Shown: positions 253 through 61,443, numbered from the stretch's first letter. The stretch is 64,000 bases of DNA from Opitutales bacterium (GCA_965226885.1 CBDDEL010000012.1:256001-320000), one strand, 5' to 3'. The notes: generated by a model from the sequence alone, not told the origin. Made by a program: numbers and translations.

Positions 253-974
253 TCACCAGGGAAGTTCCTGGCCGTTCCACTCGTGGAATTTTCCGGTATC
301 CTGAAGGGTTGCCCGGTGGAAGATTTCGATCATTCCGGTGACCACATCCTGCGCTGAGTTGGGGGCTTCATTTCCGCCCATGTCCGTCCGCACCCAGCCG
401 GGGCTTTGCAGCCGGGGCTTTGCAATAGAACAATGATATTGTCTTCCTTAAGCTGAACGGAGAGCATTTCGCCGATCATGTTGAGGGCGGCCTTGCTGGC
501 GTTGTAACAATAGGAACCGGCATCCTTACCCATTTTTTCCCGGTAGGTTATCGAACTGAGCAAGGACGTTATAAATACCGCCAGGGGACGATCCCCTTTT
601 TTTAGAAGCGGCAAAAAAGATCGCGTAACAAGAAGGGGCCCGGCGGCATTGATGCGATAAGATTCGGCCATGTTATCCAATGTCGTATCCTCGATCCCGG
701 CCCAATCCCCCACCCCGGCATTGTTGATCAGGAGATCGATGGCATCAAATCGATGCGCCACCTCATCAGCCACCTGAGTAATGCATTCCTCGTTGGAAAC
801 ATCCAGACTATGAATGCTCAATCTCTCGCCGCCATTGGATTTTAGCCCTTGCAACGACTCTGCTTGAGAGGGATTTCGGCTTGTGGCGATAACGCGATGG
901 CCGGAATCCAGGTATTGGCGTGTAAATTCGAGGCCCAGCCCGCGGTTGGCTCCGGTTATGAGAATCGATTTCAT
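253..974 (-). pseudogene. SDR-family oxidoreductase (C-factor/CsgA-like), frameshifted by a 14-nt tandem duplication
   Basis: TGANRGLG, NNAG and YNASK motifs; removing one CAGCCGGGGCTTTG copy (395-422) restores PGWVRTDMGG...GKFHEWNGQELPW* ending at 253. Confidence 0.88.
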
Positions 975-2178
975 AATTTATATTATTTAATTGGATTGGT
1001 TAGAACAGGCTCTCCAGGCATAGTTGCAAGGCGCCCTGCTTCCACCCATTTGACATGGGCCAGGTACTCCTGTCGTTGACGGGTGAATGTTTGAACAAAC
1101 CGAAAAGGCTGGACGGAAGATCGCCCGGATACCAGTGGAACCACCAGTTGAACAAATCCGTTTGGCCGCGGGCAGCTAATAAGGGCAGCAGGGCGTCGCA
1201 GACAAGCGTATCAAGCCGCGAGCCGCCAATATTATTTCCCAGTATTTTTTCGGAAAGTTGCCCTTTCAGTTGTTTCATGCGGGCGGTGCGCCGAAAATCC
1301 GCTGTTGAGGAAAGACGCCCGGTCGATGTTTTCAAATCATGGCTCCATTCCAGAAGCGCCTCCGGCCATCGAAGATTATGGTCCAAAACCCGCATGTATT
1401 GTTCGAGCCGGTTTCGCGGGTGATTGGCCGGCCGAAGCCCGATCAGCTTCCAATCGCTCCTGGCCTCTTCGAACAAGGCATTCGCGGATTTGCCTAAGGC
1501 CGCCATTTCAGCCAGAGGATCTTTTTGGGCCAGACGGAGCATGGGTAGCCGATTTCGTTTATAGCCAAGCGTTTCCAGGGCCAGGCTGTGGCAGGAGCCG
1601 GACCATCCCTTCTCGTCCAAAAGCCGAACCCGGGAATCCACTTTGCATTGCCAGCGCAGACGGGATTTGCCGATCAAATACTCCCTACGCCCGTCCACGG
1701 ATTTTTCCAACAGGGCCTCGAAACAGCTTAGTTTGTCCCGGTTTTCTAGAGCCAGAAGCGCTTCTTCGAGGGCATATTCCTCAAGGTCTTGCTGCAAATA
1801 AGGGAGCAGCACCAAAGTGTGGGGTTCTTTGCCGCTTGAGGTTATAGTTCTGGGTTCCGCGGGACCCGGCTCGAACAAAACCACGTGAAGAATAACGGAA
1901 TCAAAGTTGAGATTGGTGTCGTGACAGTGGTTTTTCCAGTCTCGTTGATGAAAATGCACCTCGACATCGCCCCGCAGGCGATGGCCATCGATTTCGATCG
2001 AACAATCCTTGAAATCGGGTCCCTCCACCTGGTTCCACCTTCCGGGATGGTGTATTTTAAGAGGTTCCTTATCCAGGGTGTTTAAGTAGCTTTGGCTGAA
2101 ATCTCCACGCAACCAGATTTGTTGAACCAGTTTCTCGGAAATTGCGACAGGACCGTAAAGACCCTGAATTTCCTCTAG

Positions 2179-3693
2179 CCCGGATATTTCATGAAGGGTA
2201 AAGTTTGGCTCGTTATTGCTATTGGAGATGGATTTCTTTGTATTTTGGGCGGATCGTCTTGATTTTGAGGTGTTTTTAGGGTGTAGAGACACTTCCCCCT
2301 TTCCCCCATTGGTTCGGTAGCGCCGGGGGCAGCGCCAATGCGCCCTTTAGGTTGGCACCAACCGGCGGGCCGCATGGTTGAAAAGACTGGCCCATGGATA
2401 ACTTTCACTTAGATGAAAGTGAATCGTTCGGGTGTTGCGCACGATTACCGCTCCGATCTTGATTAATTTTAGCCGTAGACTGTGGCATTGGAGCCGCGCC
2501 CACTTCGTCCCTTTTAATGCGAACCGGCGCAAGGCTTCCATCAAGGTGTAGGCCAGCCCCGACAAGAGCAATCGCCACTGGTTGGCCCACCATTTATGCG
2601 CGCTGGTGCGTTCGCTGAACAATTGCATCTGTTCCTTGATCCGGTTCTCCATCTCACCGCGGCCACAGTATACTTTGTCGTAAAGCTCTTGGGGATCGCC
2701 CTGCAGGTTCGTCACCACGAAGCGCGGGTTGGACCCCTGTGCGGTGTGTTCGGCTTTGTGGATGATAAGGCGTTGGCGCCGCCACGATTTTGCCCCATAC
2801 TCGAAGTGCTGAAACAGCCGTTGCTTTTTGCCGCTACCCTCGAACCATTGTTTGGCTTGCTCCTGCAACTGCCGGGCCGCTTGCTGCAAGCGTGCATGGC
2901 GGGCCGTTCCCACTATAAAATAAACCTCGTTGCGCTCGCACCACGAGAGAATCCGATCCCGGCAGAATCCGCTGTCGGCACGCCAAATAATCCGCGTATG
3001 GGGCCAGCTTTGGCGAATCCGTTTAACCAGCAATTTGAGGATGGCCCCGGCATGCTTGCTCGCATCGATCTTGCTGGGCCGCAGGTAGGCCACCAGAAGC
3101 TGATCGCCGCAAAAAACATACAGCGGCAAAAAACAGTAATGATCATAATAACCGTGGAAAAAACGTCCCTCCTGGAGCCCGTGCACCGGATTGTCGGTGG
3201 CGTCAAAGTCCAGGATGATCTCTTCGGGTTCCTCGGCAAAGGATCCGATGAACTGTTCGACCAGCAACTCGTTCAGGGCAAAGGCTGCCCGCCGATCCTG
3301 CCCGTTTTCAAAACGACACAAAGTCGGCGCGCTGGCCAACGCTTCAGTGCGCCCCGTTACCGTTTGCAACAAAGGATCGCGGCGCAGGGTGTCAAAGTCG
3401 TTCAAATCCTCATGGCGCACTTTGCCCTTCTGCCGTTTGTCTACTAATTGCCGGGCCGCTTGCTCGGTCAAGCCCAACCGCCGATCCACTTCCCGGATCA
3501 AAAGCAGCCCGGCATCCGAAGTAACCTCACCGCCCTTAAAATCAACCCGCACACGGCGGCCTTTTACCCTTGTCAACTGTAGTTCTAATTGTTTACTTTT
3601 TGTCATCGCTGATATTGCTTTAATGTTTAATCTATCCTGCTGTATATCAGCAGATAAGCATATCAGCGATACTTTTTTTATGAAATTTCCGGG
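2179..3693 (-). mobile_element. IS1380-family element, copy 1 (1515 bp)
   Basis: TIRs CCCGGATATTTCATGAA / CCCGGAAATTTCATAAA; 4-bp TSD CTAG (2175-2178, 3694-3697). Confidence 0.95.
2347..3606 (-). CDS. IS1380 transposase with a 17-codon in-frame deletion
   Basis: DFDATD, RADSGF, RGEMENRIKE motifs; lacks MLAMIRQRVYGLVAGYE present in copy 2. Confidence 0.9.
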   Translation of the reverse strand: MTKSKQLELQLTRVKGRRVRVDFKGGEVTSDAGLLLIREVDRRLGLTEQAARQLVDKRQKGKVRHEDLNDFDTLRRDPLLQTVTGRTEALASAPTLCRFENGQDRRAAFALNELLVEQFIGSFAEEPEEIILDFDATDNPVHGLQEGRFFHGYYDHYCFLPLYVFCGDQLLVAYLRPSKIDASKHAGAILKLLVKRIRQSWPHTRIIWRADSGFCRDRILSWCERNEVYFIVGTARHARLQQAARQLQEQAKQWFEGSGKKQRLFQHFEYGAKSWRRQRLIIHKAEHTAQGSNPRFVVTNLQGDPQELYDKVYCGRGEMENRIKEQMQLFSERTSAHKWWANQWRLLLSGLAYTLMEALRRFALKGTKWARLQCHSLRLKLIKIGAVIVRNTRTIHFHLSESYPWASLFNHAARRLVPT

Positions 3694-3714
3694 CTAGGGC
3701 ATTCTCTTTCACGT

Positions 3715-4191: not shown

Positions 4192-4328
4192 AACCGGATA
4201 TTGCAAAGGCGGAATCTGCAGCGGGCAAGAAGATTCCATAATTCAAACGGCGCCAACCGAATGGAAAAGCATTGATTGTAAGAAATAAGGGGTTTAAACA
4301 AAAGAGACCGCCACAATTTTTAAGAAGT

Positions 4329-5325
4329 ATGAGAGCAATGGTTCTAGAAAAAGCCGGGCAGCCCCTGAAGCTGGTTGATCTGCCCGAACCAGAGCCGAAG
4401 TACGGAGAGGTGATGCTGCGCGTGCAAACCTGCGGCGTGTGCAGGACCGATCTGCATATCGTTGACGGGGATTTGAAAAATCCGGTCCTACCCTTGGTGC
4501 CAGGCCATCAGATTGTGGGATCAGATTGTGGGAATTGTGGAAAAGTTGGGCTATGGCGTGGGACGCTTCGAACTCGGGCAGCGGGTTGGCGTTCCCTGGT
4601 TGGGCAGCACTTGCGGAAATTGCCGGTTTTGCCTGGAGGATCATGAAAATCTGTGCGACTACCCTGTTTTTACCGGATACAACAAAAATGGCGGTTATGC
4701 CGAATATGTCACTGCGGATGAAGATTTTTGCTTCAATCTGCCCGAGGAGATAACCGACATCCAGGCAGCTCCCCTGCTATGCGCCGGTTTGATCGGTTTT
4801 CGCGCTTACCGTATGACCGGGCGGGCGCGGCGTCTCGGGCTTTACGGCTTTGGCGCCGCCGCCCATATCATTGCCCAAATTGCCCATTTCGACGGGCGGA
4901 AGGTATTTGCCTTTACCCGGCCGGGCGATGAGGAAGGCCTCAAGTTTGCCCGCAGGCTGGGGGTTTCCTGGGCGGGCAGCTCGCTTGAGCGGCCTCCCGA
5001 GCCATTGGGGGCGGCCATCATTTTTGCCCCCGTCGGCGATCTCGTGCCGCTTGCCCTGAGAGCAGTGTGCAAAGGCGGAGTGGTCGTTTGCGCGGGCATT
5101 CACATGAGCGACATACCCTCTTTTGCCTACCAGGACCTCTGGCAGGAACGGGTGCTCCGCTCGGTGGCCAACTTAACGCGGCGCGACGGCATTGACTTTC
5201 TCGAACTTGCCCCCAAAGTTCAAGTGCGTTCCCATATAACCGTCTATGAACTTGAGGAAGCCAACCAGGCCCTACAGGACATGCGTGAAGGGGGCTTAAA
5301 AGGAAGCGCTGTCCTAAAAATCTAA
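4329..5325 (+). pseudogene. Zinc-dependent alcohol dehydrogenase, frameshifted by a 13-nt duplication
   Basis: GVCRTDLH..PGHQIVG in the first frame; CGNCRFC, APLLCAG, YGFGAAAH in the second; ATCAGATTGTGGG x2 at 4507-4532. Confidence 0.9.
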
Positions 5326-22903: not shown

Positions 22904-23498
22904 ATGGATGAAATCCGGCAGCTGGCAGAGACAGCTCAAAAGGGCGATCAGGACGCTTTTGGCGAAATCGTGAGGACGCATTACGATAAGGTTTACGGGC
23001 TTCTTTACCGGATTGTCATGAATGAAAGCGATGCCCGCGACCTGGCCCAGCAAACTTGGGTAAAAGCCTGGAAAAAACTCCCTTCCTTCAAGGGAAAAGC
23101 GGCCTTTACCACCTGGCTCTACCGCATAGCGGTTTTTACCGCATGGGATTTTATACGCAAGAAAAAACGCCGGGCTGAGGTCTCCTTTTTCGAGAATTAT
23201 GAGGAAGGGCAGTCACCGAAACCCATCACCGCCCAGACCTCAAGTGCCACCGAATCTCCGGTCACGGCCCTAGCCCGCAAAGAATTCAAAGAACATTTTC
23301 AAATTGCATTAAACTCACTTTCCGAAAAACAACGCACCGTGCTTATTTTACGGGAAATTGAAGGATTGTCATACAAGGAGATTGCTAATATCATGAAATG
23401 CAGAATCGGAACAGTTATGTCGCGCATCCACCATGCCCATGTCGCGCATCCACCATGCCCGCCAATCGATACAATCAAAAATGGAGGATTTTCGATGA
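22904..23498 (+). CDS. ECF sigma-70 factor; a 22-nt duplication frameshifts its last codons into the downstream gene
   Basis: Region 2 (DARDLAQQTW, FTTWLYRIA) and region 4 (GLSYKEIA..GTVMSR); removing one repeat gives ...RIHHARQSIQSKMEDFR* at 23498. Confidence 0.88.
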
Positions 23499-24223: not shown

Positions 24224-24258
24224 TATATAGCCTGTTTTATTCCAAAAAACAGCCGCCA

Positions 24259-35307: not shown

Positions 35308-37161
35308 GAGGCTGTCCCAAAAATATAAAGATTTTATAGTCAACTGGATGACGTTGATAAAAAGAGCCGGAAAGAGCAAGTTTTTGCTCGATCCGGCCAA
35401 AAACGGGTTCTATAAAAGGGTTCTATAATTGAGTTAGCGAAAATCAATATAGCCCTTTCTATGAAAAATATAGCCATCCAATGCCTCCTGCGTCCAGCTT
35501 TAACTGTGGTCGACCGGTGCCTCGATTACGATAACTTCCGCGCCACCATTGATCGAATCGATCGGCTGCTGATCGACTCGGAGGTGGAATCGCAGGCCAT
35601 TGAGCTGGCCTTGGAGGGGTGGCCGCCAATGGGTCTAAAGGCCCGGCGGCAGCGGGCCAGTTTTGCCATCAAGGCACTGCGCATGGATACGCTGGGCCGT
35701 CTGCTCGGAGGGATTTCGTTTCGGCATTTGTCGCGGGCTCTGGGCAGCAGCGATCTGTTGGCCGACTTTTGCCGTGTCCGGCAGATCGATGGCATCAGGG
35801 GCATCTCCAAAAGCACCCTGGAGCGGGCCTCGAAGTTTTTCAGCGAAGAGCAGTTGAGGGCCTTGCACCGGACCTTGACTGAGGTGGTGGGCGATGCCCT
35901 TCTGGCCCGGCAGGTGGGATTGGACAAGCCGATTGACACCACCATTTGCCTGATCGACGGCACCTGTTTGGAGGCTAACATTCATTGGCCGACGGACTGG
36001 GTATTACTCAAGGATGTAGCCGGCACGTTGCTCAAAGCGATCCGGCTGATCCGCGAGAAGGCCGGTGTGCGCCATCGCATGCCGATCGAACCGGAGCCCT
36101 TGGCTCGGCAGATGAATCGGCTGTGCATACAGATGACCCACAGCCGGCGGCGAAAGGACAGCGCGCGGCAGCGCAAGGGTATCTTGAGGCAGATGAAAAA
36201 GCTGCTCAAACGGATCGGGGAGCATGCCCGCAGTCACCGGGAATTATTGCAAGCCTGCTGGGAGCAAAGCGATTACAGCGAAAAACAGGTCCAACAGATC
36301 CTCGCCCGGATGGAGCGCATGAGCGAGCAAATCCCGGTGGTCATCAAACAGGCGCACGAGCGGATCATTGGCGGCCGCCAGGTGAAAAACGCAGAGAAAG
36401 TCTTGAGTGTTTACGAACTCGATGTGCAGGTGATTGTGCGAGGTAAAGCGGGCCAAGAGGTCGAGTTCGGCAACACCCTGTTTTTGGGAGAAAGCGTTGA
36501 AGGGTACCTGCTGGACTGGAAACTCTACGGCAGCCGAACTCCAAGCGAAAATGAACAAATGCAAGAGAGTTTGCAAAGACAGAACCGCTTCAACCTGGAA
36601 GAACCCATAGCGGCCATGTGCGCGGACCGGGGATTTGCCTCCCAGCGGGCCCGCCGGCAGTTAGCCCAGGAGGGAATCTACGACGCGCTCTGTCCACGCG
36701 ATCCGAAGCAGTTGAAAAAACGGATGGAGGAACCACTGTTCAGGCAATTGCAAAAGCGCCGGGCCAGCACCGAAGGGCGGATCGGGGTATTGAAGAATCG
36801 CTGGCAGGCCGGGCGGTTGCGCAGCAAAGGCTTTGCCAACCGCTCGATCAGCGTAGCCTGGTCGGTACTCTCGCACAACCCCTGGTCGGTACTCTCGCAC
36901 AACCTATGGAAAGTAGCCAAGATGCTGGCCCAGCAAGACGAACTAAAAACCAAAGCGGCGGCCTAGAGAGCGGAAAAGCAAGGACAATACTTTTTCACAG
37001 CCGTACTGTCGGCTCATACAAAGAAACCCAGGCAACCGGACCCCAAAACCAGTATCCTAACGTCATAGGAGAGCAAAGTTGATACTCTCCCAAATGCAAA
37101 TACCTCTAAAATGAGCGCCTATCAAAAGCCCTCGCAGAAATCACCCTTTTGGGACAGCCTC
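35308..37161 (+). mobile_element. IS5-like/ISNCY insertion sequence (1854 bp)
   Basis: Perfect 15-bp TIR GAGGCTGTCCCAAAA; 6-bp TSD TAGGTA (35302-35307, 37162-37167). Confidence 0.93.
35461..36966 (+). CDS. DDE transposase with an in-frame 8-aa duplication
   Basis: IDGTCLEANIHWPTD, RGKAGQEVEFG, ADRGF, RASTEGRIG; WSVLSHN occurs twice. Confidence 0.9.
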   Translation: MKNIAIQCLLRPALTVVDRCLDYDNFRATIDRIDRLLIDSEVESQAIELALEGWPPMGLKARRQRASFAIKALRMDTLGRLLGGISFRHLSRALGSSDLLADFCRVRQIDGIRGISKSTLERASKFFSEEQLRALHRTLTEVVGDALLARQVGLDKPIDTTICLIDGTCLEANIHWPTDWVLLKDVAGTLLKAIRLIREKAGVRHRMPIEPEPLARQMNRLCIQMTHSRRRKDSARQRKGILRQMKKLLKRIGEHARSHRELLQACWEQSDYSEKQVQQILARMERMSEQIPVVIKQAHERIIGGRQVKNAEKVLSVYELDVQVIVRGKAGQEVEFGNTLFLGESVEGYLLDWKLYGSRTPSENEQMQESLQRQNRFNLEEPIAAMCADRGFASQRARRQLAQEGIYDALCPRDPKQLKKRMEEPLFRQLQKRRASTEGRIGVLKNRWQAGRLRSKGFANRSISVAWSVLSHNPWSVLSHNLWKVAKMLAQQDELKTKAAA

Positions 37162-47676: not shown

Positions 47677-49172
47677 ATGCTCGGACGTAAAAAGAAATAT
47701 TTGGAAAACCTCAGCTTCGGCATCGATATTTTTGCCGGGACAGTCCTTTTAGGGGTAATATACCTGTTTCTACTTCATTTTGGAGCTGCCTGGGAAACAT
47801 TTCTGTTCACCGTAACCGGGTATCCTTTTTACATCCAGAGCGTTTCCCACCTGGCCGATGAAAAATGGATTTTTCTGGTCATTCTTTTCAATCTATTCGC
47901 CTCGCTTCGGCTCAACCGATATTATCAGGTCAACCTCTTTGCGGATTGGCTGGAAGTGCTCTTTCAGTCCTTTAAAAGCATCGCCATCGGGGTGGGCATG
48001 ATAACGATTTTCTTTTATTTTTTCTCCTACCAAAGTTTCAACCGTTCCCTCCTGTTCGGATTTGCCGGCATTTTTTTTGCCTACCATATACTCAACCTAC
48101 CATATACTCAAGGAACTGGGGTTGCGCCGTTACCTGATCGATTATTACGAGCGGAAACCATTGGAGGCTGTACTGGTCTGCTCCCGTGGGGAATTAAGCG
48201 ATAAATTGACGGAATTCGAGGAACGCCGGCAATCGAGTGTGCTCATAAAAGGAGCCATCCTGATCAGGGATAAAGAAGAGGAAAGCGTGGCCGGGGCCGA
48301 TGCTCCAGTGCCTATTCTGGGTGAGATAGCCGATATTAGCGCCATCCTCTCCCAAGGTCGTTTTGATTTGGTTTTTCTGGTCGCATCAGACCCGCAATGC
48401 GAAAGGAGCATTCTCAGAATGGCCGAAGAGCAAGGAATAGAGGTCTGGTTTTTTACAGATTTCATATCGCCACTACTGGCCCGGCCGGAAGTTGACGAAT
48501 TCGGGGGAAAACCAGTTATCGTTTACCGCACGACTTCCCATTACGAAGGAAAATTGTTGGCCAAAAGGGCTGTCGATATTTTTCTTTCTTGCTTTCTTCT
48601 GATCCTTACCAGTCCGATTTTTCTGATCGTTTCCCTGATCATAAAAATTAAAACGCATGGCCCGGTTTATTATGTGCAGGAACGAACGGGGCTGCGCGGC
48701 CAGGTTTTCAGGATGTTTAAATTCCGCACCATGCTGCCCGGAGCGGAAGAGCAGTTGGAACAGTTGAAAGGCCAAAACGAGATGAAAGGCCCGGTTTTCA
48801 AATCCGCTGAGGACCCACGGATCACTTCGGTCGGAAAATTTCTGCGGCGCTACAGTCTGGATGAGTTGCCGCAGCTCTGCAATGTGCTTAAAGGACAAAT
48901 GAGCCTAGTGGGGCCGCGCCCTCTGCCCGTTTACGAAACGAGGAATTTCGAGGCATTTAAAGACCACCGCCGTTACAGTGTCTTGCCCGGTCTGACTGGT
49001 CTGTGGCAGGTTTCCGGCCGCAGCCAAATAGAGGATTTTTCCGAATGGGTACAACTGGATCGAATGGGTACAACTGGATCTGGAGTACATCGATTCGTGG
49101 AGCCTGTGGCTGGATTTTGTCATCCTGATGCGCACCATTCCGGTAGTATTGCGGGGAGAAGGGGCAACGTAA
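47677..49172 (+). pseudogene. Polyprenyl glycosylphosphotransferase (WcaJ-like) with two frameshifting duplications
   Basis: KFRTM, DELPQL-NVLKG-MSLVGPRP, PGLTGLWQV; removing the 16-nt and 19-nt extra copies yields one 486-aa ORF ending LDLEYIDSWSLWLD...GAT*. Confidence 0.9.
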
Positions 49173-49368
49173 GATTAATCGGAGAAACCGGCGGGCATTT
49201 TCTTGAAAAAAAGGTTGTAATACAACGCGATTAAGGCATTACTGATTGGCTATACTGCATGGTAATGAATGGAAATTTTTGCACTTGGCTCACAATGTTA
49301 CTGAGGAAATTCAAGAGAATTCGCTCGTTCGGAGCGGTTATTTGAATTGAACCGTCGATAATTCCTGG

Positions 49369-53408: not shown

Positions 53409-53718
53409 TAACTATAACAGGCAGTTTTTTCGGAAAGAATTGAGGGGGTCAAGGTTTTCTTGAAGGCTCTATTTAGATTGACTTAAAAGAGGTGGAAAAA
53501 AGTCTTTTCAACCTGACAATGTCTGCTATGATTTTGTAATCTTCGAGCAAATCATTAAAAACAAGGAAATATCATGGCTTTATTAACATCCGGTGCAGCA
53601 GCATCTGCGGGCGGCGGGAGAGCCGGCGGCGCCAAGAAGCTCACTTTCATGGAAGGGCAGAAACTGGCCAAGCAAAGGGCCTATGAAAAACAGGCTAAGA
53701 AGAAAAAAATAGGTTTAG

Positions 53719-55285
53719 CCCGGATATTTCATGAAGGGTAAAGTTTGGCTCGTTATTGCTATTGGAGATGGATTTCTTTGTATTTTGGGCGGATCGTCTT
53801 GATTTTGAGGTGTTTTTCAGGGTGTAGAGACACTTCCCCCTTTCCCCCATTGGTTCGGTAGCGCCGGGGGCAGCGCCAATGCGCCCTTTAGGTTGGCACC
53901 AACCGGCGGGCCGCATGGTTGAAAAGACTGGCCCATGGATAACTTTCACTTAGATGAAAGTGAATCGTTCGGGTGTTGCGCACGATTACCGCTCCGATCT
54001 TGATTAATTTTAGCCGTAGACTGTGGCATTGGAGCCGCGCCCACTTCGTCCCTTTTAATGCGAACCGGCGCAAGGCTTCCATCAAGGTGTAGGCCAGCCC
54101 CGACAAGAGCAATCGCCACTGGTTGGCCCACCATTTATGCGCGCTGGTGCGTTCGCTGAACAATTGCATCTGTTCCTTGATCCGGTTCTCCATCTCACCG
54201 CGGCCACAGTATACTTTGTCGTAAAGCTCTTGGGGATCGCCCTGCAGGTTCGTCACCACGAAGCGCGGGTTGGACCCCTGTGCGGTGTGTTCGGCTTTGT
54301 GGATGATAAGGCGTTGGCGCCGCCACGATTTTGCCCCATACTCGAAGTGCTGAAACAGCCGTTGCTTTTTGCCGCTACCCTCGAACCATTGTTTGGCTTG
54401 CTCCTGCAACTGCCGGGCCGCTTGCTGCAAGCGTGCATGGCGGGCCGTTCCCACTATAAAATAAACCTCGTTGCGCTCGCACCACGAGAGAATCCGATCC
54501 CGGCAGAATCCGCTGTCGGCACGCCAAATAATCCGCGTATGGGGCCAGCTTTGGCGAATCCGTTTAACCAGCAATTTGAGGATGGCCCCGGCATGCTTGC
54601 TCGCATCGATCTTGCTGGGCCGCAGGTAGGCCACCAGAAGCTGATCGCCGCAAAAAACATACAGCGGCAAAAAACAGTAATGATCATAATAACCGTGGAA
54701 AAAACGTCCCTCCTGGAGCCCGTGCACCGGATTGTCGGTGGCGTCAAAGTCCAGGATGATCTCTTCGGGTTCCTCGGCAAAGGATCCCATGAACTGTTCG
54801 ACCAGCAACTCGTTCAGGGCAAAGGCTGCCCGCCGATCCTGCCCGTTTTCAAAACGACACAAAGTCGGCGCGCTGGCCAACGCTTCAGTGCGCCCCGTTA
54901 CCGTTTGCAACAAAGGATCGCGGCGCAGGGTTTCAAAGTCGTTCAAATCCTCATAGCCCGCCACCAGCCCGTAAACGCGCTGCCGGATCATGGCCAGCAT
55001 CTCATGGCGCACTTTGCCCTTCTGCCGTTTGTCTACTAATTGCCGGGCCGCTTGCTCGGTCAAGCCCAACCGCCGATCCACTTCCCGGATCAAAAGCAGC
55101 CCGGCATCCGAAGTAACCTCACCGCCCTTAAAATCAACCCGCACACGGCGGCCTTTTACCCTTGTCAACTGTAGTTCTAATTGTTTACTTTTTGTCATCG
55201 CTGATATTGCTTTAATGTTTAATCTATCCTGCTGTATATCAGCAGATAAGCATATCAGCGATACTTTTTTTATGAAATTTCCGGG
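53719..55285 (-). mobile_element. IS1380-family element, copy 2 (1567 bp, intact)
   Basis: Same TIRs as copy 1; flanks TTAG/CTAA. Confidence 0.95.
53888..55198 (-). CDS. IS1380 transposase (full length, 436 aa)
   Basis: Continuous ORF with DDE motifs. Confidence 0.95.
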   Translation of the reverse strand: MTKSKQLELQLTRVKGRRVRVDFKGGEVTSDAGLLLIREVDRRLGLTEQAARQLVDKRQKGKVRHEMLAMIRQRVYGLVAGYEDLNDFETLRRDPLLQTVTGRTEALASAPTLCRFENGQDRRAAFALNELLVEQFMGSFAEEPEEIILDFDATDNPVHGLQEGRFFHGYYDHYCFLPLYVFCGDQLLVAYLRPSKIDASKHAGAILKLLVKRIRQSWPHTRIIWRADSGFCRDRILSWCERNEVYFIVGTARHARLQQAARQLQEQAKQWFEGSGKKQRLFQHFEYGAKSWRRQRLIIHKAEHTAQGSNPRFVVTNLQGDPQELYDKVYCGRGEMENRIKEQMQLFSERTSAHKWWANQWRLLLSGLAYTLMEALRRFALKGTKWARLQCHSLRLKLIKIGAVIVRNTRTIHFHLSESYPWASLFNHAARRLVPT

Positions 55286-55580
55286 CTAAACCGTTTACAG
55301 GCACCGTGGTGAGGAGCATCCACGAAAGCGCCTTGCACCCTTTGGGGGGATTGTTTTCATGGGCATAGACGGCCCACACTGGCACGCTCTGCCCGCCCCT
55401 GCACGGGTCCTGCAGGAGGACCTGTTTATAGCGGATCTGCAGGCTGGCCCGTCGCTTTGGCTGTCCGGGTTTTCGAGGTACTTGCACCTGTAGGGTTCCC
55501 GCCACCTCCTCCTTCTGCAGGCTCTCCCAGAGCTTTTCCTGCTCTTCTTTGAGAATGCGATTATGGGTCGCGCGCACTAA
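55286..55580 (-). pseudogene. Internal fragment of an IS4-family (Tn5/IS50-like) transposase
   Basis: LVRATHNR...KRRASLQIRY...VYAHE..PP...WMLLTTVPV. Confidence 0.8.
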
Positions 55581-57143
55581 CCCGGATATTTCATGAAGGG
55601 TAAAGTTTGGCTCGTTATTGCTATTGGAGATGGATTTCTTTGTATTTTGAGCAGATCGTCTTGATTTTTAGGTGTTTTTCAGGGTGTAGAGACACTGCCC
55701 CCTTTCCCCCATTGGTTCGGTAGTGCCGGGGGCAGCACCAATGCACCCTTTAGGTTGGCACCAATCGGCGGGCCGCATGGTTGAAAAGACTGGCCCAAGG
55801 ATAACTCTCACTTAGGTGAAAGTGAATCGTTCGGGTGTTGCGCACGATGACCGCTCCGATCTTGATTAATTTGAGCCGCAGGGTGTGGCATTGGGCCCGC
55901 GCCCACTTCGTCCCTTTTAAGGCTAACCGGCGCATGGCTTCCATCAAGGTGTAGGCCAGCGCCGACAAGAGCAATCGCCACTGATTGGCCCACCATTGAT
56001 GGGCGCTGGTGCGCTCGCTGAACAATTGCATCTGTTCCTTGATTCGGTTCTCCATTTCACCGCGGCCACAGTATACCTTGTCGTAAAGCTCCTGGGGATC
56101 GCCCGGCAGGTTCGTCACCACGAAGCGCGGGTTGGACCCCTGTGCGGTGTGTTCGGCTTTATGGATGACCAACCGCAGCCATCGCCACGAATCGGCAGCA
56201 TAGACGAAGTCCTGGAATAACCGTTGTTTTTTACCCCTTAGTTCGAACCATTCTTTGGCCTGCTTTTGCAACTGCTGGGCGTCTTGCTGCAAGCGTGCAT
56301 TGCGAGCCATCCCCACGATGTAACTAACTTCGTTGCGGTCGCACCAAGAGAGTATCCGGTCTCGACAAAATCCACTGTCGGCGCGCCAAATAATCCGCGT
56401 ACGGGGCCAGCTTTGGCGAATCCGTTTAACCAGCAATTTGAGGATGGCCCCGGCATGCTTGCTGGCATCGATCTTGCTCGGCCGCAGGTAGGCCACCAGC
56501 AGCTGATCACCGCAAAAAACATATAGCGGCAGAAAACAGTAATGATCATAATAACCGTGGAAAAAACGTCCCTCCTGGAGCCCGTGCACCGGATTGTCGG
56601 TGGCGTCAAAGTCCAGGATGATCTCTTCGGGTTCCTCGGCAAAGGAGCCCATGAACTGTTCGACCAACAGCTCGTTTACCGCAAAGGCCGCCCGCCGATC
56701 CTGCCCGTTTTCAAAACGACACAAAGTCGGCGCGCTGGCCAACGTTTCAATGCGCCCCGTTACCGTTTGCAACAATGGCTCGTGGCGCAGGGTATCAAAG
56801 TCGTTCAAATCCTCATAGCCCGCCACCAGCCCGTAAACGCGCTGCCGCAGCATCCCCACTCATGGCGTACTTTGCCCTTCTGCCGTTTGTCCACTAACTG
56901 TCGGGCCGCTCGTTCGGTCAAGCCCAACTGCCGATCCACTTCCCGGATCAAAAGCAGTCCGGCATCCGAAGTAACCTCTCCGCCCTTGAAATCAACCCGC
57001 ACACGGCGGCCTTTTACCCTTGTCAACTGTAGCTTTAATTGTTTACCTTTTGTCATCGCTGATATTGCTTTAATTATTGATCTATCCTGCTGTATATCAG
57101 CAGTTAAGCATATCAACGATACTTTTTTTACGAAATATCCGGG
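55581..57143 (-). mobile_element. IS1380-family element, copy 3 (diverged isoform, 1563 bp, frameshifted transposase)
   Basis: Same TIRs; many substitutions versus copy 2; 4 nt shorter near 56855, splitting the ORF. Confidence 0.93.
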
Positions 57144-58341
57144 TTAGCCGACGTCTGTGTTTTCACACAACAACTCTCCTCCATGTTGGTGGCCGGTCTG
57201 CCTTTGGTGCAAGCTTTGGAAGCGCTCCAGGAACAGACCGAACATCCGGTATTTCAAGTTGTCATACGCGAGGTGAAAGCCGATGTGTCGGGCGGCACCG
57301 CCTTTTCCGATGCGGTGCGGAAATTCCCCAACGCTTTCCCCAATTTGTTCATTTCCATGGTCGAGGCTGGTGAGGCCAGCGGCGGCCTGGCATCCATCCT
57401 GGGCAAAGTGGCCACCTATTTCGAGCAGTCCGTAAAATTGACCAAAAAGGTAAAGGGGGCTATGACCTATCCGGTCGGGGTCATCTGTCTGTCGTGTGCC
57501 CTGGTCAATGTTCTGCTCATCATGGTGATTCCGGTGTTTGCGGATATGTTCTCCGGTTTCGGGGCCGAACTGCCAAAACCAACTCAGTTGCTCATCGACG
57601 CCAGTAATTTTTTGAAACCTTGGCCCGGTATCTGGATATGGCCCCCCAACATCCTTCACATCCTCGCTGGACTGTTTATCGGCTTTAAAATGCTCATGAA
57701 ATTTACCAGCACTCCGAGGGGAAGAGTGATCAAGGACCAGGTGTGGAAGAGTGATCAAGGACCAGGTGTTATTCAGGATACCGGTGGTTGGCAACCTGGT
57801 GCAAAAGACATCGGTTTCCAGGTTTTGCCGCACCTACGCCATCCTTTTGCGCAGTGGCGTGCCCATTCTGCGAAGCCTTGAAATCGTTTCCAATGCCAGT
57901 GGAAATACTTATATCGAAGCGGCCGTGGTCAATATCACCAGGCATGTCAGCCAGGGCGGGCAGTTATCGGAAGTTCTGGCCAACGACCCATTCTTCCCGC
58001 CCATGGTTAAGCACATGGCCAAGGCGGGCGAGTCCACCGGGAATGTCGATGGCATGATGGACAAAATCTCCGACTTTTACGATGCTGAAATCGAGACCAT
58101 TGTGGAGGCGCTCACCTCCCTTATGGAACCGATACTCATTTGCGTTCTGGGAGTTATCATCGGCGGCATCGTCATGGCCATGTTTCTGCCGATCTTCCAA
58201 CTATCCTCCGTTGTGGGCTGATTTTCCATTCCGGAAGGAGCTAGGTGGAGATTTGCCCGAACCAGAAGAACATGGACAAAATACAATCTTGGGGAAATTT
58301 CATAACAAGCGGCTCGCTGGTTTAAGAAATAATAACGCTTT

Positions 58342-59910
58342 ATGGCTTCGGTACTAATAGTTGACGACCTCCCGGCCGTGCACGAGATGTTGGAAGCGGT
58401 TATCAACCCTTGCGGGTTTTTAAGCGCCTTCGCCTTGAACGGCCAAGATGCCCTCAAACGTTATCGGGAAGGCAACATCGATGTCGTCCTGGTCGATATC
58501 GCCATGGAGCCGATGGATGGCATAACCGTTCTCAAGGAGCTCCGCTCCATCGACTCCAATGCCATCGTCATCATGATGACGGGCTACTCCTCGACCGATA
58601 CTGCCATGCAAGCCCTAAAATTCGGTGCTTTCGACTATGTGCAGAAGCCGTTTCGACTGGAGGAGCTGGTCAAAACCCTGCACCGCGCCGTCGATGCCCG
58701 CAAGAAGGGCAAGGGAGCCAAGGTTGCGGCCGTCGAGGAACCCCTGAGAGCGGAAAAGGATGTGGTGGGAGCGCTGGCCGGGGAGAGCGAGGCTATAAAT
58801 GCTGTCAACAAGCTAGTGCAAAAGTTGCTGCGGGCTAAAACTCCGATGCTCATCCAAGGGGAAGTCGGCACCGGCAAGCGGAGCCTGGCTGATCTTGTTC
58901 ATCAGAAAGGCCCGGGTGCAAGAGCACCCTTTATCGGCATAGATTGCCGCCTGGCCGACCCGGAAGAATTGCGAAAAGGATTGGCCAATGGAGACGGCAC
59001 GCCCGGATTTTTGATCCAGAAAGCCCAGGGAGGCACCCTCTTTTTCAACAATATCGACAAGCTGGCCAAGGTTCTACAAGTATCGGGGGGTACTTTTCGA
59101 TTGATTTGCGCGACCGAAGTGCAATTTGAGAGCCGTCTCGAAAAGGGCAACATATCGGATGATTTCTTTTTCAAGATCGCCACCCTGCCCATCACAATGC
59201 CGCCCTTGCGCAATCGACGGGAGGATTTGCCCGTACTCGTAAAAGATATTTTGAAAAGAGCGGAAAATCCTTTTTTCGATACATCGCAAATCGAGTTATC
59301 CCGGGATGCCGAATCCATGATGTATTATTACCCGTGGCCGGGAAACTTGATCGAACTGTCCAATGTTCTGACCTCTGTCGTGGTTGTTTCCCATAACCGG
59401 TTGATCAACGCCAATCAATTGCCGCTACGGTTGAAAGACGCCCGCAAATGGCCCAACTTGAAAACCTTCCTGATGGCCCGGGAAGAAGCCTATATTACCG
59501 AATTGCTGCACTTATGCGACAATGACAAGGAGAAGGCGGCCAAGCTTGCCGGGGTGGCCGATCTTTTCGAGTCCGAGTCCGAGTCCGTGGTCAAAGCGCG
59601 CGAAAAAGTGGAGGAAGCCAGCAGCCAAGATGCCTCCACCGGAAAGACCGAATTATCGGCCGACGCCCAGGAAGCCCTGGAAAAACTGAAGGCCGAACTC
59701 GATTCTCAGGAGGAAGCCATCAAGGAAGCCAAAGCCATGTTCATCGAGCGGGAAGAATTTCTCGAAACGAGCGAAAACACTCTTTTTGAAAAAGTGATGG
59801 CCCAGCAAGAGCGGGAAACCGAACTTGAACAATTGTCGGAAGATCTGGACCAGCGGGAGCAAAAACTGAATGAACGAGAAAAAGCGCTCGAGGCCAGCGC
59901 CGGGGGCTGA
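58342..59910 (+). CDS. NtrC/PilR-like response regulator with degenerate sigma54-activator domain and acidic coiled-coil tail
   Basis: REC domain (DD..D..MTG..KP), GEVGTGK Walker A, YPWPGN; no GAFTGA. Confidence 0.85.
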   Translation: MASVLIVDDLPAVHEMLEAVINPCGFLSAFALNGQDALKRYREGNIDVVLVDIAMEPMDGITVLKELRSIDSNAIVIMMTGYSSTDTAMQALKFGAFDYVQKPFRLEELVKTLHRAVDARKKGKGAKVAAVEEPLRAEKDVVGALAGESEAINAVNKLVQKLLRAKTPMLIQGEVGTGKRSLADLVHQKGPGARAPFIGIDCRLADPEELRKGLANGDGTPGFLIQKAQGGTLFFNNIDKLAKVLQVSGGTFRLICATEVQFESRLEKGNISDDFFFKIATLPITMPPLRNRREDLPVLVKDILKRAENPFFDTSQIELSRDAESMMYYYPWPGNLIELSNVLTSVVVVSHNRLINANQLPLRLKDARKWPNLKTFLMAREEAYITELLHLCDNDKEKAAKLAGVADLFESESESVVKAREKVEEASSQDASTGKTELSADAQEALEKLKAELDSQEEAIKEAKAMFIEREEFLETSENTLFEKVMAQQERETELEQLSEDLDQREQKLNEREKALEASAGG

Positions 59911-59953
59911 TCCCAAACTGCGGCTTATCCGAGTTTTTCAGTACCCTGTCAGC

Positions 59954-61443
59954 TTAGCTGAATTTTCCGGCGCCGGCCAGGACGCCCATAGCCACATATA
60001 TCAACCCAACCAGGAGCATAAGTGCGGTCCATAGAAGGCCTCTTCTGTAGGCCTTCGGAATGTGTTTTCCGGCCAGATAGGCATAGGCCATGATGAGGAT
60101 TCCGACCAGGGGAGCATCCAGATTCCGACCAGGGGAGCATCCAGAATACCGGCCGTCAGGACCAGGGTCGTCGGCTCCGGCACCATGGTGTAAACGACCC
60201 AGGAACCACCCATCATGAAGGTGATTAAAATGGTGTTCCAAATGTTTTTGGGAACCTTTGCCGTCATCTTCGGGGCAAACATTTGGAACGGCTGGGTGTA
60301 CATGCGGGCAGCCCCGTCGAAAACGGAGATGGCGGTGCTGATGATGGCCGCCCAGGTGCCCAGATAAAACACTCCCCGGGCCCAGCCGCCCCACACCTCG
60401 GTCATCATAAGACTCAGCTCCATGGTCAGATTCGGGCCGGTCAGATTGACTCCCGCCGGGCGCAATATGCCGACTCCCAAAATAAAAGTGGAGGCGCATA
60501 CCAAACCACCCAGAAGATAAGTTATAAAAATATTGATCCGATTTACCCGCAGCCATCCGCGCATTCGGTTTATTTCCTCCTCCGATTCCGGTTCCATTTC
60601 TTCTCTGGAAGGTGGGAGCCCCTTCTCTCGACGGTATTTATACAAGCCCATATGCCTTTCCTCTGCCCAGGCGCTGTAGCGAACGGTCCCCGAACCTGCC
60701 ATGATGAACCCTGCTAAGGCGACAATCATGAGAAGACCGCCCGAACCGGTTTCGCCAGAAGGTATCCTGGGCACCAATCCCAAGGCCAGGTCGCCCGCAA
60801 TGGTGGGCAGAACGAGGGCGGCGCAAGCTACCAGGCAAACCGTAAAAACGATGGTCAGGACGGTGTTGATCCTTTCCGCCGTACGATAACCGCCGATGGT
60901 GAGAAGGAACCAGACCAGGACAAAATTAAGACCTGTCCAGGCAACGCTTTGGAGGAGTTTTTCGCTCTCAGCATGGTCGCTAGGTTGAAATGAAAGAACC
61001 GCCCAGGATGGAGGCAAAAGCCAGTTCGGCAGGGGCCCAAAAATATTGTAACAAACCAGACCGGCAATGGCCACAATACTTCCGCGCAAAACAAAATCTT
61101 TTACCACGTTGACGGCATACCATACCCATGGAATCCAACTCAGCCGAGGACCCGCACCCAAACAGATTTCGAGAAAGTTCTTTCCCGTCACCAAGGAGAC
61201 GCGGCCAATAGCTTCATTCCAAAAGGCCTTGGAAACCACGGTAAAAATAATCACCCAAAAAAGCACGGCCCCATACCGAGCCCCGGCCACCGGTCCGGTA
61301 AGCAGTTCCCCGCTGCCGATGGCTTCGCCCAGAAGCATCAGCATCGGCCCAATCCAGGCCACAGCTTTAAACGCTTCCCGCGGTACAGCCGCCACCCGTG
61401 CCGCCACCCGTGAAGATGAAAAAGATGTCACGGCCTTCTCCAT
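59954..61443 (-). pseudogene. Nramp-superfamily (YcsG-like) transporter, frameshifted near the 3' end by a 23-nt duplication
   Basis: GP......IGSGEL...P..GARYG; many TMs; removing one copy gives one ORF ending at 59954. Confidence 0.82.

What the first reader, a model, noticed from the sequence alone, without database searches (positions are those of the whole stretch)
395..61411. Nine perfect 12-25-nt tandem duplications with almost no junction microhomology, all in dispensable genes
Seen: exact head-to-tail duplications at 395-422 (14 nt, SDR), 4507-4532 (13, ADH), 23417-23460 (22, ECF sigma), 36857-36904 (24, transposase), 48080-48111 (16) and 49042-49079 (19, both WcaJ-like), 57720-57769 (25, pilC), 60098-60143 (23) and 61388-61411 (12, both Nramp). 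The units share no obvious sequence motif, each occurs exactly twice, junction microhomology is 0-2 nt, and seven shift the frame. I saw none in core genes (pgi, ilvD, purB, pfk, ftsY, nusB, infC, scpB, aroB, ribH). Three genes carry two lesions, as expected for real mutations accumulating in dead genes rather than random errors. Knowledge: replication slippage normally uses pre-existing direct repeats. Inference: these look like fill-in and ligation of staggered cuts 12-25 nt apart. Candidates are footprints of an element with long variable TSDs (as known for IS1549/IS1630/IS1634), paired-nick repair by end joining, or an undescribed mutator. Because such duplications can revert precisely, they could also act as ON/OFF switches.
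Basis: partly seen in the sequence, partly recalled or inferred. Interest (0 to 1): 0.85.

Follow-up and report, generated by a model that had tools for sequence, protein, structure and literature searches.

The report
Topoisomerase-marked short tandem duplications, genome-wide
A transposon-laden marine Opitutales bacterium is really accumulating hundreds of small head-to-tail duplications that need no pre-existing repeat, and their breakpoints carry a one-strand sequence mark that points to a DNA-nicking topoisomerase as the cause.

Summary
All nine duplications are exact. They belong to 446 such events (unit 12 nt or more) across the 5.48-Mb genome, where under 0.5 are expected by chance. 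This scan had already flagged the same phenomenon on two other windows of this genome.

They are real mutations. Independently built contigs from three studies carry them, and one run lacks the 48080 copy. Six of the nine are single-copy in relatives. They are 3.5-fold depleted in conserved genes.

New here: the breakpoints carry a motif, 5'-C(-5)-W-W-W-N|, on one strand only, at both ends of the duplicated unit. This resembles a type IA topoisomerase cleavage preference. The genome's only type IA enzyme is a topoisomerase III.

The evidence does not support end joining, since no Ku or LigD was found. Transposon footprints, slippage and assembly artefact are also not supported.

The sister species G004 has the duplications too, but its motif is weaker. 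Eight other relatives sampled have almost none. Why only this clade is affected is unresolved.

Verdict: a natural counterpart of the laboratory E. coli topA duplication mutator. The topoisomerase III mechanism is inferred, not demonstrated.

The parts
395..422 (.). 14-nt exact tandem duplication (microhomology 2 nt) in the SDR gene 330-974 (-); shifts the frame
   Evidence: Single copy in G004.
4507..4532 (.). 13-nt exact tandem duplication (microhomology 1 nt). It splits a zinc-type alcohol dehydrogenase gene into ORF pieces 4272-4646 and 4513-5325 (+).
   Evidence: Single copy in G004, G003 and G001.
23417..23460 (.). 22-nt exact tandem duplication (microhomology 0) in region 4 of an ECF sigma factor gene (ORF 22904-23950 +); shifts the frame. 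The left flank reads CAGTT, so C is at -5.
   Evidence: Single copy in G004, G003, G002 and G001.
36857..36904 (.). 24-nt in-frame exact tandem duplication (microhomology 0) inside a copy of the ~1.82-kb IS family (window 35299-37175). C is at -5 on the left and G at +5 on the right.
   Evidence: The 501-aa ORF has no Pfam hit. The same unit occurs twice in the genome.
48080..48111 (.). 16-nt exact tandem duplication (microhomology 0, no C(-5) motif at either end) in the WcaJ-like sugar transferase gene (47677-49234 +); shifts the frame
   Evidence: Single copy in G004, G003, G002 and G001. In run X23 a contig lacks one copy (16 nt left out, depth 2.8 of 2.8), while X18 and X20 keep it.
49042..49079 (.). 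19-nt exact tandem duplication (microhomology 1 nt) in the same WcaJ-like gene; shifts the frame
   Evidence: Single copy in G004, G003, G002 and G001.
57720..57769 (.). 25-nt exact tandem duplication (microhomology 0). It splits pilC into two T2SSF halves (57183-57881 and 57751-58221 +). The left flank reads CGAGG, so C is at -5.
   Evidence: Single-copy in the alignment to L006 (one 25-nt gap); the L002-L005 alignments break at the duplication. Present with 0 differences in the X18 contig (5414 nt) and the X22 contig (4108 nt).
60098..60143 (.). 23-nt exact tandem duplication (microhomology 2 nt) near the 3' end of an Nramp gene (60001-61443 -); shifts the frame
   Evidence: Present in contigs of X18, X22 and X20. 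The whole gene (about 59926-61607) is missing in G004 and in a second strain in X20.
61388..61411 (.). 12-nt in-frame exact tandem duplication (microhomology 1 nt) near the 5' end of the same Nramp gene
   Evidence: Present in contigs of X18 and X20.
53714..57148 (.). Two adjacent copies (53714-55290 and 55576-57148) of the ~1.57-kb DDE (DDE_Tnp_1_4) IS family, about 316 matches genome-wide. They are context only. Their short or absent target duplications argue against the IS-footprint idea.
   Evidence: Word depth is 1800-2600 against a baseline of 5.5 in X18, and strains in X20 and X23 lack the insert.

Best explanation
The duplications are genuine recent mutations from one strand-specific process that operates genome-wide in this Opitutales lineage. 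The most likely initiator is the cell's only type IA topoisomerase, a topoisomerase III.

Proposed steps; all are inferred, and only the sequence signature is shown:
1. The enzyme nicks one strand just 3' of a C-W-W-W-N site. It stays covalently bound to the 5' phosphate.
2. Before resealing, a polymerase extends the free 3'-OH by about 6-50 nt and displaces the enzyme-bound strand.
3. The enzyme reseals when the new 3' end again offers a C at -5. That strand now carries an extra copy of the stretch between the two sites.
4. The next replication round fixes a perfect tandem duplication with no microhomology.

Selection then removes most hits in conserved genes. The survivors sit in accessory genes, pseudogenes, IS copies and spacers. 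One question remains open: whether the rate is raised in this clade, or merely unmasked by relaxed selection.
For: REAL MUTATIONS
- Logan contigs of runs from three studies reproduce the window. X18 has a 5414-nt contig covering 57121-62000 with 0 differences (three duplications). X22 has a 4108-nt contig with 0 differences (two). X20 has a 2191-nt contig with 1 difference (two). X23 lacks one copy at 48080.
- Six of 9 window sites are single-copy in relatives.

GENOME-WIDE AND REPEAT-INDEPENDENT
- 446 events. Microhomology counts are 0:249, 1:107, 2:55 and 3:15, against chance shares of 0.56, 0.28, 0.105 and 0.035.

SELECTION
- 12 events in 372 kb of genes conserved with relatives, against 42.3 expected (p=4e-8).
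- Multiples of three: 134 of 334 in unique DNA (p=0.0055), against 13 of 46 in IS copies.

POLARISED SPECTRUM in 710 IS copies (1.018 Mb)
- Private events: 349 substitutions, 90 insertions and 25 deletions.
- 76 of the 90 insertions are exact tandem duplications; 46 of these are 4 nt or longer. Only 13 deletions are 4 nt or longer.
- The 21 distinct deletions of 4 nt or more mostly have 3-10 nt of microhomology, so they come from a different mechanism.

MOTIF, from 323 events with unit 10 nt or more and zero microhomology
- The outer side has C at -5 in 48% (background 26%) and A/T at -4 to -2 in about 70%.
- Only offset 5 shows the C excess. 3229 local pseudo-sites give 25.7%.
- The two ends are negatively associated: both 50, left only 103, right only 109, neither 61; odds ratio 0.27, p=2e-8.
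- In the 212 events that can be oriented, the far end has C at -5 on the SAME strand in 53% (p=2e-18), followed by A-rich -4 and -3.
- The motif holds in unique DNA, in repeats and in three length classes.

ENZYME
- There is one PF01131 match in the genome.
- It scores 1072 bits on the topoisomerase III equivalog NF006032 (cut-off 1058). It scores 237 on topA_bact (cut-off 456).
- It aligns to E. coli Topo III structures at 293 bits, against 124 for Topo I.

LITERATURE (passages read)
- Type IA enzymes attach to the 5' end. They prefer a C four nucleotides upstream (Topo I, reverse gyrase), or CANNN| for human Topo III.
- E. coli topA R168C gives de novo tandem duplications of 2-19 bp that are independent of repeats.

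SISTER SPECIES G004
- 58 events in 1.19 Mb with chance-level microhomology.
- Most events are private to one lineage. 25 G000 events and 26 G004 events are single-copy in the other genome; 3 and 2 are shared.
Against: - The cleavage preference of this enzyme is untested. The one bacterial Topo III cited (E. coli) is reported as CTT|, and CANNN| is the human enzyme.
- The motif is low in information. 61 of 323 events have no C(-5) at either end.
- The replicate in G004 is weak. Outer C(-5) is 23 of 62 (p=0.03) and far-end C(-5) is 7 of 13 (p=0.03). There is no negative association between ends (5/5/8/13).
- The same topoisomerase III is present in 61 of 61 genomes of the order. Yet relatives G001, G002, G003, G005, G006, G008, G017 and G019 hold only 4 events in 916 kb.
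- The enzyme of G000 and G004 is not unusually diverged: 3 deviations each in 259 conserved columns. The only shared change at a near-invariant site is A33T, where G002 has S.
- No bias towards the coding or the template strand (54 against 50).
- Replication-strand bias could not be tested because GC skew is scrambled.
- Interior CWW sites are not depleted (124 against 131 expected), so extension does not simply stop at the first site.
- No polymerase is identified. The Pol I polymerase domain was not found.
Confidence: 0.55

Rival explanations
1. The same one-strand nick, extend and reseal logic applies, but the nick comes from another enzyme with a C-W-W-W-N preference. Candidates are an unrecognised nickase, an HUH-type or relaxase-like protein, primase-linked events, or an intrinsic property of the replisome in a cell without Pol I polymerase.
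For: - The motif identifies a preference, not a protein.
- Pol I polymerase (PF00476) was not found; only a standalone 5' nuclease of about 290 aa remains.
- RNase HI was not found.
- Two abundant IS families (about 0.8 and 1.8 kb) have ORFs with no Pfam hit.
- All relatives share the topoisomerase III without sharing the phenotype.
Against: - Loss of Pol I polymerase is shared by G001, G002, G017 and G019, which have almost no duplications.
- The four IS families that could be named are DDE types (IS3, DDE_Tnp_1_4, IS21, IS630), not HUH. The two unnamed families have terminal inverted repeats.
- From my own knowledge, a fixed upstream C at 4-5 nt with no other specificity is the classic type IA signature, whereas primase recognition lies within 1-3 nt of the start. 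The type IA part is supported by the passages.
Confidence: 0.2
2. One reading: two nicks 12-25 nt apart on opposite strands give a staggered break. The break is filled in and ligated by end joining, or the duplications are leftover target-site duplications of an excised element.
For: - Chance-level junction microhomology is what blunt joining would give.
- The genome is 30.5% IS sequence.
- Paired nicks produce tandem duplications in plants. This is cited within PMC6954433 (passage); I did not read the paper itself.
Against: - No Ku (PF02735) and no ATP-dependent ligase domain (PF01068) were found.
- The motif lies on the same strand at both ends, and the opposite-strand motifs are negatively associated.
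- Flank repeats of 444 IS copies are 2-8 nt, at chance level, with one of 20 nt.
- Duplication lengths decline smoothly from about 6 to 50 nt, with no peak at a fixed stagger.
- Duplications also hit IS copies themselves, at 112 of 446.
Confidence: 0.03
3. Ordinary replication slippage or microhomology-mediated tandem duplication between short direct repeats.
For: This is the textbook source of short duplications. Deletions in the same IS copies do show 3-10 nt of microhomology.
Against: - The microhomology distribution of the duplications equals chance: 249 of 446 have none.
- The breakpoints carry a position-specific motif that is absent from local pseudo-sites.
- The insertion-to-deletion ratio for events of 4 nt or more is 46 to 13 or higher. 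In Burkholderia symbiont pseudogenes the counts were 396 deletions and 300 insertions, with few above 15 nt (passages).
Confidence: 0.03
4. An assembly, polishing or sequencing artefact.
For: The genome is a 17-contig draft. The best-holding run may be the sample the assembly came from, and all laid runs are contigs rather than raw reads.
Against: - Contigs built by a different assembler, from runs of three studies under three organism labels, carry the junctions. One run carries the unduplicated allele at 48080.
- Events are 3.5-fold depleted in conserved genes and enriched for multiples of three only in unique DNA.
- Events carry a biological-looking breakpoint motif.
- A separately assembled sister species shows the same class.
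Confidence: 0.02

Closest known systems
E. coli topoisomerase I (topA) R168C mutator (Bachar et al., Nucleic Acids Res 2020, PMC6954433; abstract and passages read)
   Same: - Head-to-tail duplications arise de novo, independently of existing repeats.
- A type IA topoisomerase is implicated.
- The events break genes and can create new tandem repeats.
   Different: - That case is a laboratory point mutant of TopA, with 2-19 bp units, and the authors found no motif.
- This case is a natural lineage with no TopA at all. Its only type IA enzyme is a topoisomerase III whose R168-equivalent arginine is conserved.
- Units here run from about 6 to 50 nt.
- A one-strand C(-5) motif marks both ends.
- I could not re-examine their event list; the supplement yielded no readable text.
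Topoisomerase II-driven de novo duplications (yeast top2-FY,RG and top2-K720N, human TOP2A-K743N; review PMC11477040, passages read)
   Same: Topoisomerase cleavage is converted into small duplications where no repeat existed before.
   Different: - Those events are 2-4 (rarely 5) nt long, set by the 4-nt stagger, and they need NHEJ (LIG4, POL4, TDP1).
- Here the units are far longer and variable, no Ku or LigD was found, and the signature is single-stranded.
Microhomology-mediated tandem duplication (Rad27/FEN1-linked; PMC13167724 and a 2026 bioRxiv preprint, seen as search listings only)
   Same: Short tandem duplications, depleted from coding regions by purifying selection and able to seed tandem repeats.
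   Different: Those events are defined by flanking microhomology. Here microhomology is at chance level. A standalone 5' flap nuclease gene is present as one open frame.
Indel spectra of pseudogenes in genome-eroding symbionts (Ca. Burkholderia leaf-nodule symbionts, PMC6054270, passages read)
   Same: A host-restricted, IS-rich, pseudogene-rich genome in which about half of insertions create direct repeats.
   Different: - There, deletions outnumber insertions (396 against 300) and few indels exceed 15 nt.
- Here, among events of 4 nt or more in neutral IS copies, tandem duplications outnumber deletions by at least 46 to 13 and reach 32 nt and beyond.

Membership tests
Type IA topoisomerase duplication mutator (E. 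coli topA R168C type) | Tandem duplications independent of pre-existing repeats | tested here: met
   Microhomology counts 0:249, 1:107, 2:55 and 3:15 of 446 match chance.
Type IA topoisomerase duplication mutator (E. coli topA R168C type) | Caused by a substitution at the cytosine-pocket arginine (R168) of TopA | tested here: not met
   No TopA-class enzyme: topA_bact scores 237 bits against a cut-off of 456. The aligned arginine is conserved in G000 and in relatives. Clade-specific changes are only conservative ones.
Type IA topoisomerase duplication mutator (E. coli topA R168C type) | Unit length 2-19 bp | tested here: inconclusive
   The ranges overlap, but events here are longer. Private duplications of 4 nt or more in IS copies have a median of 10 nt and reach 32 nt. 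Genome-wide units reach 53 nt.
Type IA topoisomerase duplication mutator (E. coli topA R168C type) | Breakpoints at type IA cleavage sites (an upstream C at a fixed offset on the nicked strand) | tested here: met
   C at -5 in 48% of outer ends, against 25.7% at pseudo-sites. The same-strand far end has it in 53%. The offset matches CANNN| (human Topo III) and not CNNN| (Topo I). The enzyme's own preference is untested.
DNA topoisomerase III (the enzyme) | Scores above the curated cut-off of an NCBIfam topoisomerase III equivalog | tested here: met
   NF006032 scores 1072.2 bits against a cut-off of 1058. The best solved relatives are E. coli Topo III structures.
NHEJ fill-in of staggered breaks | Ku and LigD (or another ATP-dependent ligase) present | tested here: not met
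   PF02735 and PF01068 gave 0 matches in G000, which is 96.3% complete; the control genomes did match.
Transposon target-site-duplication footprints | A resident element whose insertions carry 8-50-bp target duplications | tested here: not met
   444 isolated copies of six IS families have flank repeats of 2-8 nt, which is chance level for a scan with +-6 nt shifts; one case had 20 nt.
Microhomology-mediated tandem duplication / slippage | Unit flanked by a short direct repeat before the event | tested here: not met
   See the microhomology distribution. Deletions in the same IS copies do have 3-10 nt of microhomology.
Assembly or sequencing artefact | Junctions absent from independent read sets and random with respect to gene constraint | tested here: not met
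   The junctions are in contigs of X18, X20 and X22. Conserved genes hold 12 events against 42.3 expected. Raw-read allele frequencies could not be measured.

The most novel reading that the evidence does not exclude
A wild-type topoisomerase III, acting as the only type IA enzyme of the cell, is itself a mutagen through a cleave, extend and religate cycle. This cycle writes a copy of the DNA lying between two of its own recognition sites. In this Opitutales clade it would be the dominant source of indels, at about one duplication of 4 nt or more per 7.6 substitutions in neutral DNA. It would make the genome insertion-biased and supply de novo tandem repeats. Because such duplications can be lost precisely, they would turn over faster than point mutations accumulate, acting as a genome-wide pool of reversible gene knock-outs.
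Probability: 0.3. Interest if true: 0.9.

Novelty: new variant of a known kind. Interest (0 to 1): 0.8.

Why it matters
How tandem repeats arise from non-repeated DNA is still an open question. The authors of the only bacterial model, E. coli topA R168C, say the mechanism is unknown, and they found no motif.

This lineage offers hundreds of natural events with base-pair breakpoints. Those breakpoints reveal a strand-specific, two-site signature. That turns a vague link to topoisomerases into a concrete biochemical model that can be tested directly.

The case also shows a bacterial genome whose small-indel spectrum is insertion-biased, contrary to the usual deletion bias.

Finally, it shows that gene loss in a transposon-laden genome that appears to be host-associated can be driven by a second process besides IS insertion.

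Tried and rejected
- Ku/LigD end joining: no match.
- Loss of Pol I polymerase as the cause: PF00476 was not found in G000. It was also not found in G001-G004 or in most of the order, including G001, G002, G017 and G019, which lack duplications.
- topA-like active-site mutation: not found.
- Repair-gene differences between the duplication-rich pair (G000, G004) and G001, G002 and G006:
  - RecQ-like, PolB-like, two DinB and RecJ are intact in all five, except that no PolB-like match was found in G006.
  - RNase HI is absent in all five.
  - RNase_T-type exonucleases are present in all five.
  - xseA is broken only in G000 and intact in G004. The literature says ExoVII does not act on trapped type IA enzymes.
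- IS footprints: rejected.
- Transcription-strand bias: none, 54 against 50.
- Replication-strand bias: not testable, because GC skew is scrambled.
- 'Extension stops at the first available site': rejected, since interior sites are not depleted.
- Rfam on the 280-nt repeat: no match.
- Supplement of PMC6954433: no readable text, so the E. coli events could not be checked for an upstream C.
The G004 motif test therefore stays underpowered.
- Technical failures: one search timed out, and searches failed on script errors. All were rerun in corrected form.

Full report
THE OBSERVATION
All nine duplications are exact two-copy head-to-tail repeats at the stated coordinates. Junction microhomology is 0-2 nt, and seven shift the frame. 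Pfam confirms the gene labels: SDR, ADH, ECF sigma, a WcaJ-like sugar transferase, pilC split into its two T2SSF halves, and Nramp.

The window lies at G000:C12:256001-320000 in a 5.48-Mb, 17-contig genome with no N. Genome-wide I found 446 exact two-copy duplications with units of 12 nt or more. That is 8.1 per 100 kb, on every contig above 10.4 kb, against an iid expectation below 0.5. Their microhomology distribution (0:249, 1:107, 2:55, 3:15) matches chance (0.56, 0.28, 0.105, 0.035). Two earlier reports of this scan describe the same phenomenon on other windows of this genome. They named the E. coli topA R168C mutator as the closest known case.

REAL OR ARTEFACT
Six runs hold at least half of the sampled words of the stretch; they come from three studies under three coded organism labels. 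I laid Logan contigs of four of them:
- X18: a 5414-nt contig covers 57121-62000 with 0 differences, so it carries three duplications.
- X22: a 4108-nt contig covers 57121-61228 with 0 differences, so it carries two.
- X20: a 2191-nt contig covers 59721-61911 with 1 difference, so it carries two.
- X23: one contig lacks one copy at 48080 (16 nt left out, depth 2.8 of 2.8), while X18 and X20 keep it.

One of these runs may be the source of the assembly, and contigs cannot give allele frequencies.

Independent support comes from relatives. Sites 395, 4507, 23417, 48080, 49042 and 57720 are single-copy in every relative that has the orthologous site. Site 36857 lies inside an IS copy. Sites 60098 and 61388 lie in an Nramp gene that G004 and a second strain lack altogether.

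SELECTION
After one copy is removed in silico, 278 of 446 events lie in an open frame of at least 150 codons. For 1500 random positions the share is 86.8%. In 325 G000 regions orthologous to ORFs of relatives (372 kb), I found 12 events with units of 10 nt or more. The unique-genome density predicts 42.3 (p=4e-8). Multiples of three are enriched in unique DNA (134 of 334, p=0.0055) but not in IS copies (13 of 46). It is what purifying selection on real mutations would produce.

A POLARISED MUTATION SPECTRUM
Repeats with at least three copies at 97% identity or more make up 30.5% of the genome. There are six main IS families. Four could be named: IS3, DDE_Tnp_1_4, IS21 and IS630. The other two have no Pfam hit.

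Duplications hit IS copies individually. 112 of 446 lie in repeats, and there are 418 distinct units.

I aligned 710 full-length copies (1.018 Mb) to their family consensus and counted private events:
- 349 substitutions, 90 insertions and 25 deletions.
- 76 of the 90 insertions are exact tandem duplications: 21 of 1 nt, 6 of 2 nt, 3 of 3 nt, and 46 of 4 nt or more.
- Several of the other 14 insertions are multi-copy or imperfect duplications.
- Only 13 deletions are 4 nt or longer.

The 21 distinct deletions of 4 nt or more mostly carry 3-10 nt of junction microhomology. Deletions therefore look like slippage, and duplications do not. The spectrum is insertion-biased, with about one duplication of 4 nt or more per 7.6 substitutions. 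In Burkholderia symbiont pseudogenes, by contrast, deletions outnumber insertions and few indels exceed 15 nt (passages).

AGE AND LINEAGE
Perfect duplications with units of 15-40 nt number 310. Those with exactly one interior mismatch number 23. The events are therefore very young or short-lived.

The sister species G004 (about 89% nucleotide identity) has 58 events in 1.19 Mb, or 4.9 per 100 kb, with chance-level microhomology.

Events are mostly private to one lineage:
- Of 38 G000 events with an orthologous site in the G004 sample, 25 are single-copy there, 3 are shared and 10 have another length. A further 231 had no orthologous site in the sample.
- Of 35 G004 events with a site in G000, 26 are single-copy, 2 are shared and 7 have another length. 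A further 23 had no site.

Other relatives have almost none:
- G001: 1 in 100 kb
- G002: 0 in 80 kb
- G003: 1 in 116 kb
- G005: 0 in 200 kb
- G006: 0 in 60 kb
- G008: 1 in 200 kb
- G017: 0 in 80 kb
- G019: 1 in 80 kb

Because these relatives are gene-dense and presumably under stronger selection, this contrast does not by itself prove a higher mutation rate in the G000 and G004 clade.

THE BREAKPOINT MOTIF (NEW HERE)
I used the 323 events with units of 10 nt or more and zero microhomology, where breakpoints are unambiguous. The base five positions outside the unit is C in 48% of ends, against a background of 26%. It is followed by A/T at -4, -3 and -2 in about 70% each. The commonest words at -5 to -2 are CAAT, CAAA and CTAT. 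The right end shows the mirror image. Only offset 5 shows the C excess, and 3229 pseudo-sites placed 150-1000 bp away give 25.7%.

The two ends are negatively associated: both 50, left only 103, right only 109, neither 61 (odds ratio 0.27, p=2e-8). This fits one initiating end per event, with C present at about 76% of initiating ends by my arithmetic from that table.

I oriented the 212 events that have exactly one outer C. In these, the far end carries C at -5 on the same strand, inside the unit, in 53% (p=2e-18), followed by A-rich -4 and -3. So the duplicated unit is the stretch between two like sites on one strand.

The pattern holds in unique DNA (n=245), in repeats (n=78) and in three length classes. 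Among the four unambiguous window events, three (23417, 36857 and 57720) have the C and one (48080) does not.

G004 shows the same tendency only weakly. Outer C(-5) is 23 of 62 (p=0.03) and far-end C is 7 of 13 (p=0.03). There is no negative association between the ends.

WHICH ENZYME
Type IA topoisomerases nick one strand and bind covalently to the 5' end. They prefer a C at a fixed upstream offset. The reported preferences are CNNN| for bacterial Topo I and reverse gyrase, CANNN| for human Topo III and CTT| for E. coli Topo III (passages).

G000 has a single PF01131 match. It is a topoisomerase III, scoring 1072 bits on NF006032 (cut-off 1058). On topA_bact it scores 237 bits against a cut-off of 456. 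Its best solved relatives are E. coli Topo III structures. The same enzyme occurs in 61 of 61 sampled genomes of the order.

A cleave, extend and religate cycle would explain:
- the absence of microhomology;
- the same-strand motif at both ends, because the enzyme must bind the 3'-OH strand both to cleave and to reseal;
- the excess of duplications over deletions;
- the smooth length decline.

None of these steps has been shown.

WHAT DOES NOT EXPLAIN IT
- No Ku and no ATP-dependent ligase domain was found.
- The Pol I polymerase domain was not found, and only a standalone 5' nuclease remains. This is also true of relatives that lack duplications.
- The enzyme's R168-equivalent arginine is conserved. 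G000 and G004 show only 3 deviations each in 259 conserved columns. The one shared change at a near-invariant site is A33T, next to the TOPRIM glutamate, and G000 alone also has A29T. This is a lead, not evidence.
- RecQ-like, PolB-like, DinB and RecJ genes are intact in both groups, although no PolB-like match was found in G006. RNase HI was not found in any of the five genomes searched.
- xseA is broken by an IS and a frameshift in G000 only. ExoVII is reported not to act on trapped type IA enzymes.
- IS flank repeats are short.
- There is no transcription-strand bias.
- Replication bias is untestable.

TAXON AND SETTING
Record titles of the nearest relatives of the topoisomerase name Opitutales, Opitutaceae and Verrucomicrobiota. 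This agrees with the earlier notes.

The holding runs carry organism labels rather than metagenome labels, and each has 7-12 million contigs. Together with the IS load and the pseudogenes, this suggests a host-associated bacterium. That is an inference.

VERDICT
- The closest known system is the E. coli topA R168C mutator. Membership fails on the defining mutation, because the enzyme here is a different one with no R168-type change, but the working principle appears the same.
- The literature searches I ran turned up no natural lineage with such a signature. They also turned up no breakpoint motif for type IA-linked duplications.

Noticed in passing
G000:C8:33990-34862 (outside the window); whole genome: The Pol I polymerase domain (PF00476) was not found in G000, in G001-G004 or in most of 30 relatives. 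Full-length PolA (about 920-957 aa) was found only in G005, G007, G008 and G025. G000 keeps a standalone 5' nuclease of about 290 aa that matches the N-terminus of PolA models.
   Followed up: partly
G000:C16:753030-755564 (outside the window): The only type IA topoisomerase is a topoisomerase III. No TopA-class enzyme was found. The same enzyme is present in 61 of 61 sampled genomes of the order. RNase HI (PF00075) was not found in the five genomes searched.
   Followed up: partly
whole genome; window 2175-3697, 35299-37175, 53714-55290, 55576-57148: 30.5% of the genome is made of repeats with at least three copies at 97% identity or more. There are six main IS families. The 1.57-kb DDE family gives about 316 matches, and its word depth in run X18 is 300-470 times the single-copy baseline. 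The copy at 2175-3697 is absent from G004.
   Followed up: partly
G000:C11:253518-256467 (outside the window): xseA (exonuclease VII large subunit) is a pseudogene in G000. It carries an IS insertion at 254524-256106 plus a frameshift and a TAG. It is intact in G004, G001, G002 and G006.
   Followed up: yes
window 23948-24226: A repeat of about 280 nt has dozens of copies at 85-92% identity in every genome of the genus: 55-65 matches in G001-G003, 29 in G004, but only about 9 in G000. It has no Rfam match.
   Followed up: partly
window 59926-61607: The Nramp gene that carries two duplications is absent from G004, where only about 120 nt lie between its neighbours. It is also absent from a second, roughly 90-95%-identical strain present in run X20.
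   Followed up: partly
window ~48195 (G004:C26:57571-59573): The G004 ortholog of the WcaJ-like transferase is interrupted by an insertion of about 2 kb. The gene is therefore broken independently in both species.
   Followed up: no
window 45504-45521 and 59568-59587: Short repeat arrays (8 nt x 2.2 copies and 6 nt x 3.3 copies) are one unit shorter in some runs: 45504 in X23, and 59568 in X20 and X23. Copy number at small tandem repeats therefore varies between strains.
   Followed up: no
G000 versus G004, genome-wide: A few perfect duplications are shared by G000 and G004 despite about 11% divergence: 3 of 38 G000 events and 2 of 35 G004 events that have an orthologous site. These could be retained, recurrent or converted.
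   Followed up: no
IS copies genome-wide: Some insertions in IS copies are two or three extra copies of an 11-30-nt unit. New duplications therefore seem to expand further into short arrays.
   Followed up: no
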